Source: an uncultured Mycoplasmatota bacterium
GTDB taxonomy: Bacteria > Bacillota_I > Bacilli_A > RF39 > UBA660
Direction: 5' to 3'
NCBI GenBank assembly: GCA_946494015.1
Contig: CAMMBL010000003.1
Location: 1-55,631 of the forward strand
Length of the DNA: 55,631 bases
Below the pieces are notes generated by a model that was given only the letters and a program-made list of their open reading frames with translations, was not told where the DNA came from and ran no database searches. This document shows positions 10,777 to 16,901 of the stretch, one piece after another. Each line of letters begins with the position of its first letter. The first letter of the stretch is position 1. A program made the translations under genes and the position numbers.

Positions 10777-11253
10777 TTAATTACTAGGAATTTTTAATAT
10801 TTGACCAACAGACAATAAATTAGTTGTTAAATTATTCAAAGATTTAATTGCATCTACTGTTGTATTAAATCTATTAGCTATACTCCATAAACTATCTCCA
10901 CTTTTAACCGTATAATTAACAGGAGTTATATTATTAGAAGATGGTATAAGTAAAACTTGACCTATAGAAAGTAAATTAGATGTTAAACTATTGGCATCTT
11001 TTAAAGCTGCAACTGTAACTCCAAATTGATTGGCAATACTCCATAGACTATCTCCAGACTTTACAGTATAAGTATTTGTAGTTATATTATCATTATCATT
11101 ATTATTATCTTCTTCTAAATCATCACTAGCACTAATACCAGGAATAATCAAAGACTGTCCTATGCTTAAAGTATCACTAATTAAGTCATTTGCATCCCTT
11201 ATTTCTTGAACTGTAATTCCAAATTTCCTAGCTATACTCCAAAGGTTATCTCC
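10777..11253 (-). pseudogene. 3' fragment of the interrupted amidase-LysM gene (rest of LysM4, LysM5, LysM6)
   Basis: The open frame extends 34 codons upstream of the tracked 11151 start as GDNLWSIARKFGITVQEIRDANDLISDTLSIGQSLIIP, beginning exactly at the attachment core. It is in frame with the 5' fragment. Confidence 0.93.
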
Positions 11254-11269
11254 AGATACATTTTTTATG
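11247..11269. repeat. Left attachment junction (core TATCTCC plus arm AGATACATTTTTTATG)
   Basis: Read directly; the arm is the 15/16 reverse complement of the arm at 15369-15384. Confidence 0.92.
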
Positions 11270-12830
11270 TAACATTTTTAAATGTAAATATAATATCTAT
11301 CGTTTTGTCCTGATAGATATAAATTTTTTCAACCAAATTTATTATCAATTCTCTAGTTGGATTTTCTAATGATAAAAATTCATTAATATATTTTTCTATC
11401 ATTTTATTATCTATTTTATTGGATTCACTATTTTCATTTTTAAGATTATCAATACTTGATTTATTATTTTCTATTTCATGCTTTAGATTTTCACTAACTC
11501 TTATATATTGTTCTTCATCAATAATACCCTTTAACATATTCATATAATTTTTATCCAAAGTTTCAGTTAAGTTATTATTTGCAAATTCTAAACTTTCTAT
11601 TTGCTTTTTTATTTTTAAAGTATTATCTATAGGGCTTATATTACCAATAGATTCTTTTACCTTATTTCTATCTAAATACTTTTTGCAAACTCCTTTTATA
11701 TTATCTAAAATAATCCTTTCTAGATTTTCATAATTGTTTGTATGAGTTGTGCAAACATGATATTTAGAATATGTTCTGTAATAATCACAAGTGGTATAAC
11801 TTCTACCTGTTTTATTTTGGTATCTAATTGTTATTCTGTGTTTACAATCTCCACAATATAAAAGCCCATCTAATAAATAAAATCTTTTTTTATCAGGTCT
11901 TTTAACATTTTTAGGTAGTAAAGTTTGTACATAATTAAATTTATCTCTATCAATAATTGCCTCATGGGTATTCTCAACTATAATATAGTCATTGGGGTTA
12001 TTTTTAACCGTCTTTTTAAGTTTATAATTAATCTTTTTAGTTTTACCTTGAACTGTATCTCCTACATATATCTGATTAGTAAGTATTGCTTTTACAGTAG
12101 TATCAACCCATATACCATATTCTTGGCTTATACAATTTGTATTTATGCACTTTGTATTCCATACATAATTATAATAAGATGCTGGAGTTTTAATTTTTCT
12201 TTCTGTAAGATATTGTGCTATATAATGGTAGGTATTACCTTTTAGTGCTAAATCAAATATCAATTTAACAGTATCTGCTTGTTCAACATTCACTACTAAA
12301 TGATTTTTATTTGTTGGATCTTTTATATAACCAAAAGGACATCTACCAGATACATATAATCCTTCTTTCATTCTAGAATGTAAACTTGTTTTAACTTTTT
12401 TAGAAATATCTTTAGCATACATATCATTCATTATTGCTTTAAAAGGTGCTATGTCATTATTAGTATTATCTATAAATGTGTCTATACCATCATTAATAGC
12501 AATATACCTAACATTTTTATTTGGAAAATACTTTTCTATTAATTCACCTGTACCAATATAATCTCTACCTAATCTAGACATGTCTTTGGTAATAATCATA
12601 TTGATTTTACCAAGTTCAATATCTTTCATCATTTTTTTGAATGCTGGTCTATCAAAATTAGTTCCTGAAAATCCATCATCAACATATTCATCTACTACTA
12701 TGTAATTATTTTCTTTAACATATTGTTTTAGTAAACTTCTTTGACTAATAACACTATCAGATTCTATTTTTCCATCATCTCTTGATAATCTTATATATAA
12801 TCCTACTTTAAAACTACTATTCCCAATCAT
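11265..12830 (-). CDS. Large serine recombinase (resolvase, recombinase and zinc-ribbon domains; SpoIVCA/TnpX-like)
   Basis: YIRLS catalytic Ser, YVDDGFSGTNFDRPAF, KDMSRLGRD, PFGY, HEAIID, CGDC...C...C zinc ribbon, 521 aa. Confidence 0.96.
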   Translation of the reverse strand: MIGNSSFKVGLYIRLSRDDGKIESDSVISQRSLLKQYVKENNYIVVDEYVDDGFSGTNFDRPAFKKMMKDIELGKINMIITKDMSRLGRDYIGTGELIEKYFPNKNVRYIAINDGIDTFIDNTNNDIAPFKAIMNDMYAKDISKKVKTSLHSRMKEGLYVSGRCPFGYIKDPTNKNHLVVNVEQADTVKLIFDLALKGNTYHYIAQYLTERKIKTPASYYNYVWNTKCINTNCISQEYGIWVDTTVKAILTNQIYVGDTVQGKTKKINYKLKKTVKNNPNDYIIVENTHEAIIDRDKFNYVQTLLPKNVKRPDKKRFYLLDGLLYCGDCKHRITIRYQNKTGRSYTTCDYYRTYSKYHVCTTHTNNYENLERIILDNIKGVCKKYLDRNKVKESIGNISPIDNTLKIKKQIESLEFANNNLTETLDKNYMNMLKGIIDEEQYIRVSENLKHEIENNKSSIDNLKNENSESNKIDNKMIEKYINEFLSLENPTRELIINLVEKIYIYQDKTIDIIFTFKNVT

Positions 12831-13009
12831 TAATTATTTCTCCTTTCCTTTTGGGAATAATGAGTATGATTGAATGGTAGCTCTAAATTTAAAATATTAC
12901 AAGTCTTATTAATCTTTTTTTGTAATTCAATTTTTAATACTTCAGTTATTGTTTCGTTTAAAGATTTTCCATTTTCTTTAAACTTTAAATTAACTTTGTA
13001 TTCAACCAT
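12830..13009 (-). CDS. 59-aa basic protein coupled to the recombinase (candidate recombination directionality factor)
   Basis: ATG at 13009 after GGAGG; stop overlaps the recombinase start; the ORF track gives a 65-aa version. Function is inferred from position only. Confidence 0.6.
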   Translation of the reverse strand: MVEYKVNLKFKENGKSLNETITEVLKIELQKKINKTCNILNLELPFNHTHYSQKERRNN

Positions 13010-13109
13010 AGAGTTTATTACCTCCATTTAAACCTATGGCATTAACTTTAATTTTAGTAATATTATTTGGTATGCATATTACATACTCAAAAATATTACT
13101 TAACTTCAT
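13002..13109 (-). CDS. Unannotated 35-aa ORF (MKLSNIFEYVICIPNNITKIKVNAIGLNGGNKLYG)
   Basis: GGAGG RBS; overlaps both neighbouring small ORFs. Confidence 0.35.
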   Translation of the reverse strand: MKLSNIFEYVICIPNNITKIKVNAIGLNGGNKLYG

Positions 13110-13140
13110 ATTCCTCCATTATATTTTTCATAAACATCAT
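13096..13140 (-). CDS. Unannotated 14-aa leader ORF (MMFMKNIMEEYEVK)
   Basis: AAGGAG RBS immediately downstream of a sigma-A-like promoter. Confidence 0.3.
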   Translation of the reverse strand: MMFMKNIMEEYEVK

Positions 13141-13154
13141 CTCCTTTTGCATGG

Positions 13155-13183
13155 ATGATACCTCTTTAAAATATAGGAGTCAA
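13155..13183 (-). promoter_or_regulatory. Sigma-A-like promoter for the small ORFs and recombinase
   Basis: TTGACT-17 nt-TATCAT on the minus strand. Confidence 0.65.
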
Positions 13184-13250
13184 GTTATATTTTTATTGTT
13201 AATTTTTTATATTATCCTAAAATTCAAAAAAATTAATTAATTACTGATTA

Positions 13251-13340
13251 GCAGGATAAGAAGTAGGCGCCTTGATCCTTATTTTTCTTTATAAAATAAG
13301 TAAAATAGTAGGTGCCATTCTTATTTTGCACTTGCAAAAT
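13251..13340 (-). other. Candidate origin of transfer (MOBP/RP4-like nic motif with repeats)
   Basis: Minus strand GCCTACTTC-T-TATCCTGC versus RP4 oriT GCCTACTTC-ACC-TATCCTG^C (recalled); flanked by two AGTAGGYGCC...CTTATTTT direct repeats and short inverted repeats. Confidence 0.5.
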
Positions 13341-13456
13341 TCATCCTATTTTATAGGTTTATATTAAGGTTAAATATAAACAATATAAAATTTTAAGACA
13401 ATAAAAAATCATCCTTTTTTCCAATTTTTATTAAAAATAGTAGGATGATTAAATTT

Positions 13457-14182
13457 TTATTTTTGTTTAATGGTTTTTAATTTTTCATCATAATAATTAA
13501 ACATCTTCTGAATTATATTATCACCAAATTCATTAATCGTTGAAAAATCTGACATTAAATTTTTAAATTGCTCAATACTTAATATTTCTGATAAATATCT
13601 TATAGATAGATAACTTAAATCATAGCCATTATAGTTATCATTAATGAAAGAATTTCCATGTTTTAAATTATTCATTTGAGGTATTACTTTGGTTTGCTCC
13701 CTTACCCTTAAATAAAAATCATTAAAAACACCTGAATCGTTCAGTGAATCTTTTTCTCCTGACATAAATTGTGCCATTCCTTCATCGTACCAAACTATCC
13801 TTTTTGAATAATCATTGTGCAATATATATTTCATATATAAAATATGAAATAATTCATGGCTAGCAGTATACAATCTTTTTAACTGGAATTTAGGATTCAC
13901 ACACGCATTAACCATTTCATTATCATAAGTCCCTGTAGCATATTCGGGTAACGAATCTCTTTCACCTCTTAAAGAATATATAAATTCTCTAAATTCTTCT
14001 ACATTATCAAAATAATTAACAACTATTGGTTCATCACTAGAAATACTAAAAAATAATTTATATTCTTCTATCTTTTTATTAAGTAAGGAAACAGTTGCTT
14101 GTGCTAAATTTTCTAGGCTCTCTGAATAATTTATTTCACACAAGTTTGTTTTTAAACTTTTTCTCATTTTCATCACCACCAC
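13457..14182 (-). CDS. Gluzincin-type zinc metallopeptidase (MA clan-like), no signal peptide evident
   Basis: SHELFH (HExxH) followed by WYDEGMAQF (third-ligand EG.A motif) and C-terminal Y..SYL.I.YL helix. Confidence 0.72.
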   Translation of the reverse strand: MVVMKMRKSLKTNLCEINYSESLENLAQATVSLLNKKIEEYKLFFSISSDEPIVVNYFDNVEEFREFIYSLRGERDSLPEYATGTYDNEMVNACVNPKFQLKRLYTASHELFHILYMKYILHNDYSKRIVWYDEGMAQFMSGEKDSLNDSGVFNDFYLRVREQTKVIPQMNNLKHGNSFINDNYNGYDLSYLSIRYLSEILSIEQFKNLMSDFSTINEFGDNIIQKMFNYYDEKLKTIKQK

Positions 14183-14184
14183 AA

Positions 14185-15264
14185 TTAACTTTCTAAATCT
14201 TTTTCAGATAAATTTAACATATTCCTAGCTCTCAATAAGAGTTGCTGATAAGTAAGAATATGTATATTGTGATAAGAAGAATTCAATATTCTTAAATATT
14301 TTTTTTCTTCATCACTTAATTCATTCTTAGTACCAATTAATATAATACCTCTTGGTCTTGCTATGACACAATCATTATCATCTTGATAACTATTATTTGA
14401 AGTCATTTTTTCTAATTCAAAAATATAATTTTGAGTTTGTGCAATTGCTTTTGTTAATTCACTAGATGAATAATAATTTTTATGATTCGTATCATAATGA
14501 AATAACTCCGCAGTTGGTAATTTAACTTCTATTATATCAATAAAATCCTCTAAATTTTTAGGAATACCATCTAATATATTTTTAGAATTAATTTTTTCTT
14601 CTTTTACAAAAGTACAATATTCACTCCCAAAAAGCCACAAATTTTTCTTTAAAAATTTTTGTATAAAAACTTCATTTTTAAATTTACCATTAATTATTTT
14701 TTCTAGATCTAAAATTGCTTGTTCTTTCATTTTAATATTTACTAATTTATAATAATCATCTATGCTATCAATATTATTTTCTATTAATTTAAGAAAATCA
14801 TTTTTTGAAATAGCTTTATTATAATTGTTATTAGAAGTTTGAATTTTATATGACAAATCATTATTACATAATTTTATTTCATCTAAAAATTGTTTTAAAA
14901 CGCTTATTGCGTGAGGGTTTAATGTTACTTCTTGTTCATTGTAGATATTGCCTTTAGATGTTCTTCTACATATATGTAAACCAGAAGTTTTATTACCTTC
15001 TTCTGTCTCAACAAGCCAACACCAATATTTCTGTTGTCCTGTTGGTGATTCGAATAATTTTATCTTTTCTGAAATTTTAAATTCAAGAGATTGCTGTCCA
15101 ATCTCATATTGTTCTTCTGTATATGTATTTCCGCAATCTGATATTGCCTCAGCCATTCTATAATTATCTCCATCCTCTTTATTTATTTTTTTACCTATGT
15201 ATATTTTTCCATCTTTTTTATTATCATCAAAATTCGGATTAAAATTATTCAAGCAAATCACCAC
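14185..15264 (-). CDS. Shedu (SduA/DUF4263)-like anti-phage nuclease
   Basis: E.FIQKFLKKNLWLFG.EY, D...D.IEVK.P (PD-(D/E)xK), ELTKAIAQ..NY, PRGIILIG, I.ILTY..LL.RA: the DUF4263 core, preceded by an unrecognised N-terminal domain. Confidence 0.75.
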   Translation of the reverse strand: MVICLNNFNPNFDDNKKDGKIYIGKKINKEDGDNYRMAEAISDCGNTYTEEQYEIGQQSLEFKISEKIKLFESPTGQQKYWCWLVETEEGNKTSGLHICRRTSKGNIYNEQEVTLNPHAISVLKQFLDEIKLCNNDLSYKIQTSNNNYNKAISKNDFLKLIENNIDSIDDYYKLVNIKMKEQAILDLEKIINGKFKNEVFIQKFLKKNLWLFGSEYCTFVKEEKINSKNILDGIPKNLEDFIDIIEVKLPTAELFHYDTNHKNYYSSSELTKAIAQTQNYIFELEKMTSNNSYQDDNDCVIARPRGIILIGTKNELSDEEKKYLRILNSSYHNIHILTYQQLLLRARNMLNLSEKDLES

Positions 15265-15298
15265 CCAAAGTTTTTAGTTATCTATAATTATATCATAT

Positions 15299-15327
15299 AA
15301 AAAGGCACTTTTCTTAAAAAAGCCCTT
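15299..15327 (-). terminator. Intrinsic terminator supplied by the element downstream of the truncated amidase
   Basis: Minus strand AAGGGCTTTT-ttaag-AAAAGTGCC-TTTTT hairpin plus U-tract, 27 nt after the new stop codon. Confidence 0.55.
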
Positions 15328-15353
15328 AAGATTCCTTGTGATTTTAAATATTT

Positions 15354-16538
15354 CTACTCATTATTCCCCATAAAAATTGTATCTCCTTTTTCTACTGTGT
15401 AATAAAAGACAGCACCATTATTATCTCCTTGATTATTATTTTCACCACTAACACCAGGAATAGTTAGAACTTGGCCTACACTAAGAGTATCAGTTACAAG
15501 ATTATTAGCATCTCTTATTTGTTGAACTGTAACTCCAAATTGATTAGCAATCTTCCATAAACTATCTCCTTTTACTACCGTATAAGTAGTAGAGGGCTGT
15601 GTTTGATTATTATCTTCATTGTCATTACCTGCACCAGGAATTATTAAAACTTGGCCGATACTAAGGACATCACTTGTCAAATTATTAGCTCTCCTTAAAT
15701 CATTAACACTAATACCATAACGACTTGCTATACTCCATAAACTATCTCCCTTTTGAACAGTATAAGTAGTAGATCCACCTATATTATTATCATTATTTCC
15801 ATTATTACCAGGTATTCTTAAAACTTGTCCTACACTAAGAAGATCAGTTGTTAAATTATTAGCATCTCTTAACTCTTGTACAGTAACTCCAAAGCGATTA
15901 GCAATACTCCAAAGACTATCTCCTTTTTTTACTGTATAAAAATTAGTACCACTTCCTTCTGGTGGAGTATAAGGAACTCCAGCATATTCAGCAATTGCTC
16001 TAACTACTGCTTCTACATAATTTAATAAATCATTTTGTAACTTAACTCTATCATTAGCATTATCAATAAAACCATACTCTACAAGTAATGATTGCATAGG
16101 AGAAGTTTCTCTAATAATATAATAATAATCTTTTGAAGGATCTTCTGGTAATCTTCTTTGATAATATTTACGCATAATTTGTCCTTCAGAACCAATTTCT
16201 TCTAAAATATTTTGAGCTAAAGTAGAAGAATTACGCAAAGCATAAATAACTTCAGCACCTTCTCCTCCTCCAGCATTTATATGATTAGAAATAAGTATAG
16301 CATCCCTACTTCCACCAAAAGCCTCATTAGCACGTCTAAGCCGTTCTTCTCTACTCAAATTTTCATCAAAATCTCTTGTTAAAACTGCTGGTATACCTAG
16401 TTCTTGTAATCTTTCATACATATATAAAGAAGCATCTAATGTAAAATTTTTCTCTTGCAAGCCACCACTAACAGCTCCAGGATCAGAACCTCCATGTCCC
16501 GCATCTACAACAACACCTGTTACTCTACGCTCATTCAT
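15354..16538 (-). CDS. N-acetylmuramoyl-L-alanine amidase (Amidase_3) with 3 LysM repeats; 5' part of the interrupted gene
   Basis: VVVDAGHGGSDPGA, EKNFTL, ISNHINAGGGEGAE, LLVEYGF; three complete LysM repeats, then YTVEKGD breaking into the element-derived tail TIFMGNNE. Start at ATG 16538 after GAGGTG. Confidence 0.93.
   Translation of the reverse strand: MNERRVTGVVVDAGHGGSDPGAVSGGLQEKNFTLDASLYMYERLQELGIPAVLTRDFDENLSREERLRRANEAFGGSRDAILISNHINAGGGEGAEVIYALRNSSTLAQNILEEIGSEGQIMRKYYQRRLPEDPSKDYYYIIRETSPMQSLLVEYGFIDNANDRVKLQNDLLNYVEAVVRAIAEYAGVPYTPPEGSGTNFYTVKKGDSLWSIANRFGVTVQELRDANNLTTDLLSVGQVLRIPGNNGNNDNNIGGSTTYTVQKGDSLWSIASRYGISVNDLRRANNLTSDVLSIGQVLIIPGAGNDNEDNNQTQPSTTYTVVKGDSLWKIANQFGVTVQQIRDANNLVTDTLSVGQVLTIPGVSGENNNQGDNNGAVFYYTVEKGDTIFMGNNE
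15369..15386. repeat. Right attachment junction (arm CATAAAAATTGTATCT plus CC; core TATCTCC 15380-15386)
   Basis: Read directly. Confidence 0.92.
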
Positions 16539-16901
16539 AATATTCACCTCTACATTAAAATATGTAAAAAGGCCTATTTTGCTACTATTATAAGCATTAA
16601 GCTTAATAAAACTAACTATATTTTAAAAAATAAAAGATTTTCTAATGATGAAATATTATAAAACCAAAATAAAATATTAACAACAACAAAACATAACTTA
16701 AAAAAATTTGATAGAGGTGTATTTTCTAAAATGGAAAACAATACCAATGCTAAATTAAATACACTAGTAAAAAACTTACAGGCAAAAAAAATAACCTTTT
16801 GCTTTTTAGCAATACGGCTATTTTTATATAACAAATTACTTAATAACTTTTTATAGTTTTTGATATTAAATTCAATAAACTTATAATTCTTTCTTATTAA
16901 T

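What the first reader, a model, noticed from the sequence alone, without database searches (positions are those of the whole stretch)
11247..15386. Excised circle would carry a textbook 16-2-16 serine-integrase attP
Seen: joining the element ends gives CATAAAAATTGTATCT-CC-AGATACATTTTTTATG, with 15 of 16 arm positions complementary around a CC/GG dinucleotide. The recombinase stop codon (11265-11267) sits inside one arm. Known: large serine recombinases cut at a central 2-bp overlap flanked by inverted arms. Inference: the sites are intact, so the element is recent or under selection, and integrase plus attB/attP can be read directly from this window as a candidate genome-engineering tool.
Basis: partly seen in the sequence, partly recalled or inferred. 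Interest (0 to 1): 0.78.

Follow-up and report, generated by a model that had tools for sequence, protein, structure and literature searches.

The report
LysM-targeting serine-recombinase element: attP confirmed
The predicted docking sites are real: a 4.1-kb mobile element driven by a large serine recombinase sits in the DNA for a LysM cell-wall-binding repeat, its empty target exists unchanged in sister strains, and it belongs to a large gut-bacterial family, not found described in the papers searched, that always crosses over at the same GG and carries changing anti-phage genes.

Summary
Observation confirmed. A 7-bp core TATCTCC lies at 11247-11253 and 15380-15386. Joining the ends gives CATAAAAATTGTATCT-CC-AGATACATTTTTTATG, 15/16 complementary (chance about 1e-6). 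The recombinase stop lies in one arm.

Interpretation supported and sharpened:
- **Restored gene.** Removing 4133 bp restores a 545-aa Amidase_3 + 6xLysM ORF.
- **Empty site.** The exact predicted attB occurs in four metagenome contigs whose flanks are about 99.9% identical to the window.
- **Family.** Of 80 related loci from different species, 76 have a recognisable recombinase-side end, and in 73 of these LysM codons (G-D-T/S-L) follow it.
- **Crossover.** GG is invariant at both junctions in 49/49 complete elements. It is the only identity shared by the two junctions in 14.
- **Recent transfer.** A 2.2-kb core (small ORF + recombinase + ends) is 97.7% identical to an element in a host whose flanks are about 71% identical.

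Cargo varies: Shedu here, DpnII R-M, AIPR and others elsewhere.

Corrections:
- The enzyme is TnpX/TndX-like, not a phage integrase.
- attB is a degenerate protein-motif site present in every LysM repeat, and only one half resembles attP.
- The functional sites probably exceed 34 bp.

Excision, the need for a directionality factor and any sporulation link are untested.

The parts
11252..11253 (-). Crossover dinucleotide (GG on the gene strand) at the recombinase-side junction
   Evidence: GG is invariant at both junctions in 49/49 complete elements. It is the only identity shared by the two junctions in 14/49.
15385..15386 (-). Crossover dinucleotide (GG on the gene strand) at the cargo-side junction
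   Evidence: Same analysis. It lies within the 7-bp core TATCTCC at 15380-15386.
11254..11269 (.). attP arm next to the recombinase (gene strand CATAAAAAATGTATCT). It contains the recombinase stop codon at 11265-11267.
   Evidence: Family consensus is CATAAAAAtTGTATCa at about 2 bits per position.
15369..15384 (.). attP arm at the cargo end (gene strand AGATACAATTTTTATG)
   Evidence: It is 15/16 complementary to the other arm. Family arms are 12-16/16 complementary, most often 14.
11236..11251 (-). attB half-site B' (gene strand AGATAACCTTTGGAGT; LysM codons D-N-L-W-S)
   Evidence: Identical in the natural empty sites L082-L085. Family consensus nGATAC-TTTATGG equals the attP arm minus 4 bp.
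15387..15402 (-). attB half-site B (gene strand TTACACAGTAGAAAAA; LysM codons Y-T-V-E-K)
   Evidence: Identical in the natural empty sites. It shows little similarity to the attP arms.
11265..12830 (-). Large serine recombinase, 521 aa
   Evidence: Pfam Resolvase 7.7e-23, Recombinase 9.6e-24, Zn_ribbon_recom 7.9e-10. TnpX N-terminal domain 2mhc E=4e-29 and SPbeta integrase E=1e-17. 36.7% identity to TndX.
12830..13009 (-). Conserved 59-aa ORF (65 aa counted from 13027). Its stop overlaps the recombinase ATG. Candidate directionality factor or regulator.
   Evidence: Present in 48/48 recombinase-bearing elements. N-terminal half is nearly invariant. No Pfam or PDB match. AF2 pLDDT 73, with a short strand and one long helix.
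13028..13458 (-). Conserved non-coding leader of the core module
   Evidence: Part of the 2210-bp block that is 97.7% identical to L001. Conservation rises from about -430 and is strong from about -235 before the recombinase start.
13457..14182 (-). Cargo: 241-aa HExxH metallopeptidase-like protein
   Evidence: Weak, below-threshold Pfam hits: Peptidase_M9 1.4e-5 and Peptidase_MA_2 8e-4. Flagellinolysin HExxH 1.9e-6.
14185..15264 (-). Cargo: 359-aa Shedu SduA-like nuclease
   Evidence: Pfam SduA_C 1.3e-19. PADLOC SduA 1.8e-40.
15286..15368 (-). Conserved cargo-side end. It supplies eight codons and a stop (TIFMGNNE*) to the truncated host ORF.
   Evidence: About 100 bp at roughly 80% identity between elements. 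The outer flank GGGGAATAATGAGTA carries 1.5-2 bits per position. Truncated product.
15387..16547 (-). Host gene, 5' part: Amidase_3 domain plus LysM repeats 1-3 and the start of repeat 4
   Evidence: Pfam Amidase_3 5.8e-33, LysM 4.3e-62.
10777..11251 (-). Host gene, 3' part: rest of LysM repeat 4 plus repeats 5-6
   Evidence: The restored 545-aa ORF. Intact 540-549-aa orthologues at 79-84% identity.

Best explanation
The 34-bp palindrome is the core of the attP site of a 4133-bp integrative element. The element is moved by a TnpX/TndX-like large serine recombinase.

Shown:
- The element interrupts LysM repeat 4 of an Amidase_3 + 6xLysM gene.
- Removing it restores the gene exactly.
- The empty target exists in sister strains.
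- In the family, both junctions always carry GG (the first two bases of the Gly codon in K-G-D-T/S-L-W), often as the only shared bases.

Inferred mechanism:
- Recombinase dimers bind the near-symmetric attP (CATAAAAAWTGTATCN-GG-NGATACAATTTTTATG) on a circular form.
- They also bind the LysM-coding attB.
- They synapse, cut both sites with a 2-nt stagger at GG, rotate and religate.
- The non-palindromic GG and the asymmetric attB fix the orientation. Cargo, small ORF and recombinase are therefore always co-directional with the host gene.

The attB half on the D-T-L-W side carries the same two motifs as the attP arm (GATAC and TTTATGG) but 4 bp closer together. This matches the shifted zinc-ribbon-domain motif model for serine integrases.

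The element is a shuttle for variable, mostly defence cargo. Here the cargo is a Shedu nuclease and a peptidase-like protein. The element has moved recently between species.

Whether excision needs the conserved 59-aa ORF, or is intrinsic to the recombinase as in TnpX, is not known.
For: - **Palindrome, core and restored ORF:**
- **Chance:** about 1e-6.
- **Enzyme:** recombinase domains and catalytic serine present.
- **Empty site:** exact attB in L082-L085. Flanks show 6 mismatches in 6493 nt on one side and 2 in about 860 nt on the other.
- **Family:** at least 527 related recombinase loci in species-representative genomes. LysM codons follow 73 of 76 recognisable recombinase-side ends.
- **Crossover:** 49 complete elements all have GG at both junctions. 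No shared base to the left in 21, none to the right in 29, and GG only in 14.
- **Symmetry:** attP arms 12-16/16 complementary against attB 0-7/16.
- **Motif shift:** the P'/B' motif is shifted by 4 bp. LI integrase shows a 5-bp ZD-motif shift (PMC3783163).
- **attP-type joints in nature:** L019 9562-9595, a tandem with a recombinase-less derivative, and contig L081.
- **Horizontal transfer:** core module 97.7% nt identical to L001, host flanks about 71%.
- **Architecture and cargo:**
- **Precedent:** TnpX recombines 2-bp identities and needs no RDF (PMC5704250).
Against: - No read or contig shows the circle joint or a fresh excision of this particular copy. Only assembled Logan contigs were available, and they gave no clean joint.
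- The empty sites could be never-occupied alleles rather than excision products.
- The attB half on the Y-T-V-K side has little similarity to the attP arms.
- The palindrome is shorter than the minimal attP of characterised integrases. Those are about 40-50 bp (PMC3783163; PMC12286644).
- L019 and L081 may be tandem arrays rather than circles.
- No transfer function (relaxase or similar) was detected among the element's four ORFs.
Confidence: 0.85

Rival explanations
1. The element is mainly a developmentally excised gene-intervening element of the skin / SPbeta / gin type. The recombinase and the 59-aa ORF would cut it out only in the sporulating mother cell, restoring a CwlC-like lysis amidase. 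Mobility would be secondary.
For: - Excision restores the ORF exactly.
- The amidase domain starts at residue 12, leaving no room for a signal peptide. This matches the architecture of mother-cell amidase CwlC (my own knowledge).
- A small conserved ORF sits next to the recombinase in 48/48 elements. This resembles GirX/GirC of gin (PMC5595907) and SprB/SprA.
- Many species carry the interrupted gene.
Against: - The family hits repeats 1-5 of many different LysM proteins, including M23, GH25 and PG_binding_1 types.
- The insertion is polymorphic between 99.9%-identical strains.
- The core has crossed between hosts with about 71%-identical flanks.
- Cargo turns over.
- No sporulation gene lies in this window.
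- Sporulation-specific expression was not tested. This reading can coexist with the mobile-element reading.
Confidence: 0.2
2. It is a phage-type, strictly unidirectional serine integrase with one dedicated attB. Integration happens once at a unique site, and excision needs an RDF.
For: Canonical three-domain recombinase. Near-perfect attP inverted repeat around a non-palindromic dinucleotide. A conserved small ORF could be an RDF.
Against: - There are no phage genes in the element.
- The nearest characterised relatives are the transposon recombinases TnpX and TndX.
- Targets are many different LysM repeats.
- Occupied and unoccupied repeats barely differ.
- Tandem arrays carry attP-type joints.
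Confidence: 0.1
3. The copy is an immobile relic. The palindrome would persist only through coding constraint on the recombinase C-terminus or by chance.
For: One arm overlaps the last codon and stop of the recombinase. No circle joint was seen for this copy.
Against: - The other arm lies outside any element gene and is equally conserved.
- All ORFs are intact.
- The chance of 15/16 or better is about 1e-6.
- The insertion is polymorphic in near-identical strains.
- A 97.7%-identical core occurs in another host.
Confidence: 0.03

Closest known systems
Tn4451/Tn4453 (TnpX) and Tn5397 (TndX): large-serine-recombinase transposons of Clostridium perfringens and C. difficile
   Same: - Closest characterised enzymes: TnpX catalytic domain E=4e-29, TndX 36.7% identity over 98% of the length.
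- Small cargo-carrying elements that excise as circles and recombine at a 2-bp identity.
- Several targets are used (PMC5704250).
- The target partly resembles the circle joint. That holds here for the B' half.
   Different: - Crossover is GG, not GA. The GA value is from my memory of the TnpX/TndX literature.
- No Mob or oriT module was detected in this element.
- The target is a defined protein-motif-coding sequence (LysM) and not loosely AT-rich sites.
- The recombinase sits at the 3' end, reading out of the element.
- A conserved 59-aa ORF is coupled to it.
- Cargo is anti-phage defence, not antibiotic resistance.
Multi-targeting clade of large serine recombinases (for example Cp36; Durrant et al. 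2022, PMC10083194)
   Same: Recombinases that integrate into many attB sites sharing a motif of 20 bp or more with a conserved core dinucleotide. Motifs built from natural attB sites predict their targets.
   Different: The Cp36 motif is A-rich / AA core / T-rich. Here the motif is the codon string for Y-T-V-K-x-G-D-T-L-W with a GG core. LysM targeting is not mentioned in that paper ('LysM': 0 occurrences). Membership of that clade was not tested here.
Phage serine integrases with solved site recognition (Listeria A118/LI integrase, SPbeta SprA, Bxb1, phiC31)
   Same: Same domain order. attP is an imperfect inverted repeat around a non-palindromic dinucleotide. attB carries the outer motif shifted toward the centre: 5 bp in LI (PMC3783163), 4 bp here on one half.
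   Different: Not in a prophage. Only one attB half shows the motifs. Only 34 bp is palindromic. Directionality control is unknown.
Sporulation gene-intervening elements (skin in sigK, SPbeta in spsM, gin in gerE)
   Same: A large serine recombinase plus a small accessory protein, precise in-frame reconstitution of a host gene, and non-phage cargo as in gin (PMC5595907).
   Different: Those sit at one fixed gene per element and excise in the mother cell. This family uses many genes and repeats, is polymorphic and is horizontally transferred. Developmental control is untested.

Membership tests
Large serine recombinase (LSR) integrative element | N-terminal resolvase catalytic domain with the serine nucleophile | tested here: met
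   PF00239 at residues 11-157, E=7.7e-23. The YIRLSRDD motif aligns with TnpX and puts Ser16 on TnpX's LSRDD serine. That this is TnpX's catalytic Ser15 is from my own knowledge.
Large serine recombinase (LSR) integrative element | Recombinase domain followed by a zinc-ribbon domain | tested here: met
   PF07508 at 183-306 (9.6e-24) and PF13408 at 319-379 (7.9e-10). Aligns with SPbeta integrase over residues 12-485. The coiled-coil insert was not examined separately.
Large serine recombinase (LSR) integrative element | Crossover at a 2-bp non-palindromic dinucleotide shared by attP and attB | tested here: met
   GG at both junctions in 49/49 complete elements, and the only shared bases in 14/49. 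This is comparative evidence, not biochemical.
Large serine recombinase (LSR) integrative element | attP with inverted-repeat half-sites | tested here: met
   15/16 here and 12-16/16 across the family. Symmetry ends at 16 nt.
Large serine recombinase (LSR) integrative element | Conservative insertion: the empty site equals the two flanks joined at the dinucleotide | tested here: met
   Exact 34-nt attB in L082-L085, with flanks about 99.9% identical.
Large serine recombinase (LSR) integrative element | Catalysis of attP x attB recombination; directionality; RDF dependence | not testable with these tools
   Needs a plasmid or in vitro assay.
Tn4451/Tn5397-type (TnpX/TndX) transposons | Recombinase orthologous to TnpX/TndX | tested here: inconclusive
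   These are the best characterised relatives, but identity to TndX is only 36.7%. It is a homologue, not an orthologue.
Tn4451/Tn5397-type (TnpX/TndX) transposons | GA dinucleotide at the element ends | tested here: not met
   The ends carry GG. The GA feature is recalled from the literature.
Tn4451/Tn5397-type (TnpX/TndX) transposons | Mobilisation (Mob/oriT) or conjugation module | tested here: not met
   No relaxase or conjugation family was found among the four ORFs. The oriT-like motif suggested by another first-stage note was not evaluated.
Sporulation gene-intervening elements (skin/SPbeta/gin) | The interrupted gene is sporulation-specific, and excision occurs in the mother cell | not testable with these tools
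   The amidase has no signal peptide and is CwlC-like in layout. Only an unchecked note reports sporulation genes.
Sporulation gene-intervening elements (skin/SPbeta/gin) | One fixed, vertically inherited insertion site | tested here: not met
   Different repeats and different LysM genes are hit. The insertion is polymorphic within the species. The core has moved between hosts.
Shedu defence system (cargo) | SduA protein with the DUF4263 nuclease domain | tested here: met
   PADLOC SduA 1.8e-40 and Pfam SduA_C 1.3e-19. Catalytic residues were not inspected.

The most novel reading that the evidence does not exclude
One recombinase lineage may have evolved to read the DNA that encodes a protein domain motif (LysM, Y-T-V-K-x-G-D-T-L-W) as its attB. 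Every LysM repeat in hundreds of gut Bacilli species would then be a landing pad.

The elements would act as exchangeable defence-gene cassettes expressed by read-through from the host gene. They would also be excised on cue, for example in the sporulating mother cell and with the 59-aa ORF as directionality factor, to rebuild the full-length wall hydrolase. That would make them both the smallest and the most widespread class of programmed gene-intervening elements.

Motif targeting and cassette behaviour are largely shown here. Cued excision is not.
Probability: 0.2. Interest if true: 0.85.

Novelty: new variant of a known kind. Interest (0 to 1): 0.6.

Why it matters
- **A ready-made specificity data set.** The window and its relatives supply one recombinase lineage (76-98% identical) with 49 natural attP/attB pairs, a verified empty site and a crossover fixed by comparison. 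That is unusually rich for studying how serine integrases read DNA. It includes an attB in which only one half carries the recognisable motifs.
- **A safe-harbour strategy.** The target is a repeated, codon-constrained protein motif. The site therefore cannot easily mutate away, and losing some repeats is likely tolerated.
- **Spread of defence genes.** It shows how Shedu, DpnII R-M, AIPR and other defence genes move among uncultured small-genome gut Bacilli.
- **Limits for engineering.** The enzyme is a plausible candidate but a motif-targeting one. Off-target use of related sequences should be expected.

Tried and rejected
- **Whole-genome search closed.** I could not count element copies or LysM sites, or look for sporulation genes in the window's own genome.
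- **Reads.** All 23 runs found are kept only as Logan contigs. Laying four of them gave fragmentary pieces and no clean attB or circle joint. Two odd joints with extra letters (15394>11312, 11296>15283) look like related elements from other organisms and were set aside.
- **attP pattern scan.** At 1380 bp it is too short to tell a circle from a tandem array.
- **The 59-aa ORF.** No Pfam, NCBIfam, PADLOC or PDB relative. The AF2 model has moderate confidence and shows one long helix. It does not show the second helix a ribbon-helix-helix fold would need. I did not run a fold search on it.
- **Symmetric attB rejected.** I looked for attP-like motifs in the Y-T-V-K half of attB in several registers by eye and found none convincing.
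- **Target choice among repeats.** Occupied and unoccupied LysM repeats differ very little (largest KL 0.4 bit, outside the 16-nt arms).
- **Prophage endolysin rejected.** The surrounding genes are housekeeping: HU, CCA-adding enzyme, DnaD, PBP, RecU, RecA, PheS.
- **Literature.** Three full-text searches found no description of LysM-targeting recombinase elements.


Full report
**1. The observation**

- The window reads ...CAAAGGTTATCTCC|AGATACATTTTTTATGTAA... at the left junction and ...CCCCATAAAAATTGTATCTCC|TTTTTCTACTGTGTAA... at the right junction.
- The longest string shared by the two junctions is TATCTCC, at 11247-11253 and 15380-15386. The element is 4133 bp.
- Joining the ends gives CATAAAAATTGTATCT-CC-AGATACATTTTTTATG with 15/16 complementary arm positions. 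Beyond 16 nt the symmetry ends.
- The recombinase stop (11265-11267) lies inside the arm 11254-11269.
- Random end pairs from this AT-rich window reach 15/16 or better in 2 of 2,000,000 trials. The analytic estimate is 2e-7.
- The arm pattern occurs nowhere else in the 55.6-kb window.

**2. What the element interrupts and carries**

All genes are on the minus strand.

- Removing the element fuses 15387-16547 to 10777-11251. The result is a 545-aa ORF with an Amidase_3 domain starting at residue 12, so there is no signal peptide, and six LysM repeats.
- The joint reads ...YTVEKGD|NLWSIARKF..., a perfect LysM motif in repeat 4.
- In the integrated state the ORF ends after eight element-encoded codons (TIFMGNNE*).
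- In gene orientation the element carries:
  - a Shedu SduA-like protein of 359 aa (PADLOC 1.8e-40);
  - a weakly HExxH-peptidase-like protein of 241 aa;
  - a 430-bp leader;
  - a 59-65-aa ORF whose stop overlaps the next start;
  - a 521-aa large serine recombinase with Resolvase, Recombinase and Zn_ribbon_recom domains.
- The closest solved structure is the TnpX catalytic domain (E=4e-29). YIRLSRDD aligns with TnpX LYERLSRDD, placing the nucleophile at Ser16. SPbeta integrase aligns over residues 12-485.
- The best named relative in plasmid records is TndX, at 36.7% identity over 98% of the length.
- The neighbours are housekeeping genes (HU, CCA-adding enzyme, DnaD-like, PBP, RecU, RecA, PheS), not phage genes.

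**3. The predicted attB exists in nature**

- A search with the restored protein found many intact 540-549-aa orthologues at 79-84% identity, one named from Candidatus Onthousia, a chicken-gut Bacilli genus.
- It also found P0067, a 421-aa protein differing from the restored protein at a single residue and spanning the joint.
- Its four contigs (L082-L085, separate assemblies) all contain TTACACAGTAGAAAAAGGAGATAACCTTTGGAGT exactly.
- In L082 the flanks differ from the window by 6 mismatches in 6493 nt downstream and 2 in about 860 nt upstream.
- The insertion is therefore polymorphic among near-identical strains and is conservative to the base.

**4. The family fixes the crossover**

- The recombinase has relatives at 76-98% identity in species-representative genomes of uncultured gut Bacilli / 'Tenericutes' MAGs.
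- Of those 80 loci, 76 have a recognisable recombinase-side end. In 73 of them LysM codons G-D-T/S-L-x-x-I-A follow it.
- 49 elements have both ends (2.9-7.9 kb, plus one 1.6-kb recombinase-less derivative). In each, removal restores ...Y-T/I-V-K-x-G|D-T/S-L-W/Y-S-I-A....
- GG is present at both junctions in 49/49.
- No base is shared to the left of GG in 21, none to the right in 29, and GG is the only shared identity in 14.
- The 7-bp core in this window cannot locate the exchange on its own.

**5. Site architecture**

- The family attP arms are CATAAAAAtTGTATCa and its complement, at about 2 bits per position and 12-16/16 complementary. attB halves are 0-7/16 complementary.
- The D-T-L-W half of attB reads nGATAC-TTTATGG. 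The attP arm reads nGATAC-AATT-TTTATGG. These are the same two motifs, 4 bp closer in attB.
- This parallels the LI/A118 model. There the zinc-ribbon-domain motif sits 5 bp nearer the centre in attB than in attP (PMC3783163). Assigning the motifs to domains here is my inference.
- The Y-T-V-K half of attB shows no convincing similarity to the attP arms.
- Sequence outside the palindrome is also conserved: GGGGAATAATGAGTA on the cargo side and the recombinase C-terminal codons on the other side. The functional attP probably exceeds 34 bp.
- Occupied and unoccupied LysM repeats are nearly indistinguishable. All six repeats of this gene carry GGAGATA. The enzyme therefore targets a motif, not a unique site.

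**6. Architecture, cargo and movement**

- Every element has the same order: attL, cargo, small ORF, recombinase, attR. All are co-directional with the host gene.
- The small ORF is present in 48/48 recombinase-bearing elements, with a nearly invariant N-terminal half MVKYKVNLKFK..GKSLNEIITEVLKIEL.
- It has no detectable relatives. Its model shows a short strand and one long helix at pLDDT 73.
- Clustering gives about 100 protein clusters in 50 elements. Annotated cargo includes DpnII-type R-M (D12 methylase, N6_N4 methylase, DpnII), AIPR, and SWIM + RhuM + UPF0158. By my reading of the sequences, not a family search, there are also an MMPL-type transporter with a TetR-like regulator and a ProRS-like protein.
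- Against L001, the 2210-bp core (leader + small ORF + recombinase + end) is 97.7% identical in nucleotides and stops exactly at the element end. Cargo differs and host flanks are about 71% identical. That indicates recent horizontal transfer with cargo exchange.
- Targets: 32 of 50 elements sit in Amidase_3-LysM genes. By tblastn the rest lack an Amidase_3 domain. From their N-terminal sequences I read them as other LysM proteins (M23, GH25, PG_binding_1, a membrane protein); no family search was run on them. Repeats 1 to 5 are hit.
- attP-type joints occur in sequence data:
  - L019 carries a full element followed directly (P-GG-P') by a 1.6-kb derivative that keeps only the last ~130 bp of the recombinase gene.
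  - L081 is a 1380-bp metagenome contig running from a recombinase 3' end through P-GG-P' into cargo.
  - Either could be a tandem array or a circle.

**7. Mechanism and what remains open**

- Shown:
  - exact boundaries;
  - conservative insertion;
  - GG as the shared overlap;
  - conserved near-symmetric attP;
  - an intact recombinase;
  - recent mobility.
- Inferred: the standard serine-recombinase pathway of dimer binding, synapsis, a 2-nt staggered cut at GG, rotation and religation. The non-palindromic GG would set the orientation.
- Unknown: whether excision is intrinsic, as for TnpX (PMC5704250), or needs the 59-aa ORF as an RDF. How the circle moves between cells is also unknown. 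No relaxase was found.
- Contigs of a metatranscriptome run cover the recombinase, small ORF, cargo and the amidase-to-cargo junction at 100% identity. This is compatible with read-through expression, but DNA carry-over cannot be excluded.

**8. The sporulation rival**

- Earlier notes of this scan are unchecked leads. They report the same family in other genomes, and sporulation genes elsewhere in this genome.
- The signal-peptide-less amidase is CwlC-like in layout, and the recombinase-plus-small-ORF pairing recalls gin, skin and SPbeta (PMC5595907).
- Against a purely developmental role stand the multiplicity of targets, within-species polymorphism, horizontal transfer and cargo turnover.
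- The two readings can coexist.

**9. Comparison with the literature, and novelty**

- The system works like a TnpX/TndX-type serine-recombinase transposon and like the 'multi-targeting' recombinases of Durrant et al. (PMC10083194). Its site logic is that of phage serine integrases.
- It fails two Tn4451-type features: GA ends and a Mob module. It also fails the fixed-site feature of sporulation intervening elements.
- Full-text searches found no description of LysM-motif targeting by a recombinase.
- I rate it a new variant of a known kind.

**10. Verdict**

- The finding is correct and is better supported than a single window could show.
- For the proposed assay:
  - use sites of at least 60 bp;
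  - include the 59-aa ORF as a variable;
  - test the other LysM repeats;
  - expect motif-level rather than unique-site specificity.

Noticed in passing
L082:5850-5950, L083, L084, L085; also L003, L006, L013, L014, L028, L030, L036, L052, L070, L071, L072, L076 just upstream of the amidase fragment: The same amidase gene is hit at a second fixed site, inside the catalytic motif N-A-G-G-(G/D/E)-G-A-E, with the break just before AGG(T/A)GG. The inserted elements have at least three different end types. In L082 the element carries a 555-aa serine recombinase only 34% identical to the window's. The strains with the empty LysM-4 site all carry such an insertion 861 nt upstream.
   Followed up: partly
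L019:9562-11175: Tandem array. A full element is followed directly, through a precise attP-type joint, by a 1.6-kb recombinase-less derivative. The derivative has its own cargo and keeps only the last ~130 bp of the recombinase gene, so it looks like a non-autonomous 'mini' element.
   Followed up: partly
L081:1-1380: Short metagenome contig running from a recombinase 3' end through P-GG-P' (14/16 complementary) into a cargo gene. It is either an assembled circle joint or another tandem array.
   Followed up: no
window 15354-15386 and the equivalent left end of all elements: The first ~100 bp of the cargo end are conserved across elements. They always give the truncated host ORF the same tail and stop (T-I-F-M-G-N-N-E-stop). 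The sequence may be an extended attP, a deliberate stop, or a restart signal for cargo translation.
   Followed up: partly
window 13028-13458: The 430-bp leader before the small ORF belongs to the conserved core: 97.7% identity to L001 and strongly conserved from about -235. Another first-stage note proposes an oriT-like motif here. I did not evaluate it.
   Followed up: no
window 11657-15900 (run X3): Contigs from a chicken-gut metatranscriptome run match the recombinase, small ORF, both cargo genes and the amidase-cargo junction without mismatches. This suggests the element is transcribed, possibly by read-through from the amidase promoter. DNA carry-over is not excluded.
   Followed up: no
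L017, L056, L064 host genes: Some target 'amidases' read DAYRGG or DPYRGG where the window has DAGHGG. A catalytic-site residue may be replaced, so these hosts may be non-catalytic wall-binding proteins.
   Followed up: no
whole window: Strong strand asymmetry: G 9.5% against C 16.9% on the plus strand. Nearly all long ORFs lie on the minus strand.
   Followed up: no
L053:3337, L066:9949, L075:9226: Three recombinase-side ends are not followed by LysM codons. L053 looks like an attP-type joint with a 1-nt deletion. L066 and L075 may be decayed or atypical targets.
   Followed up: no
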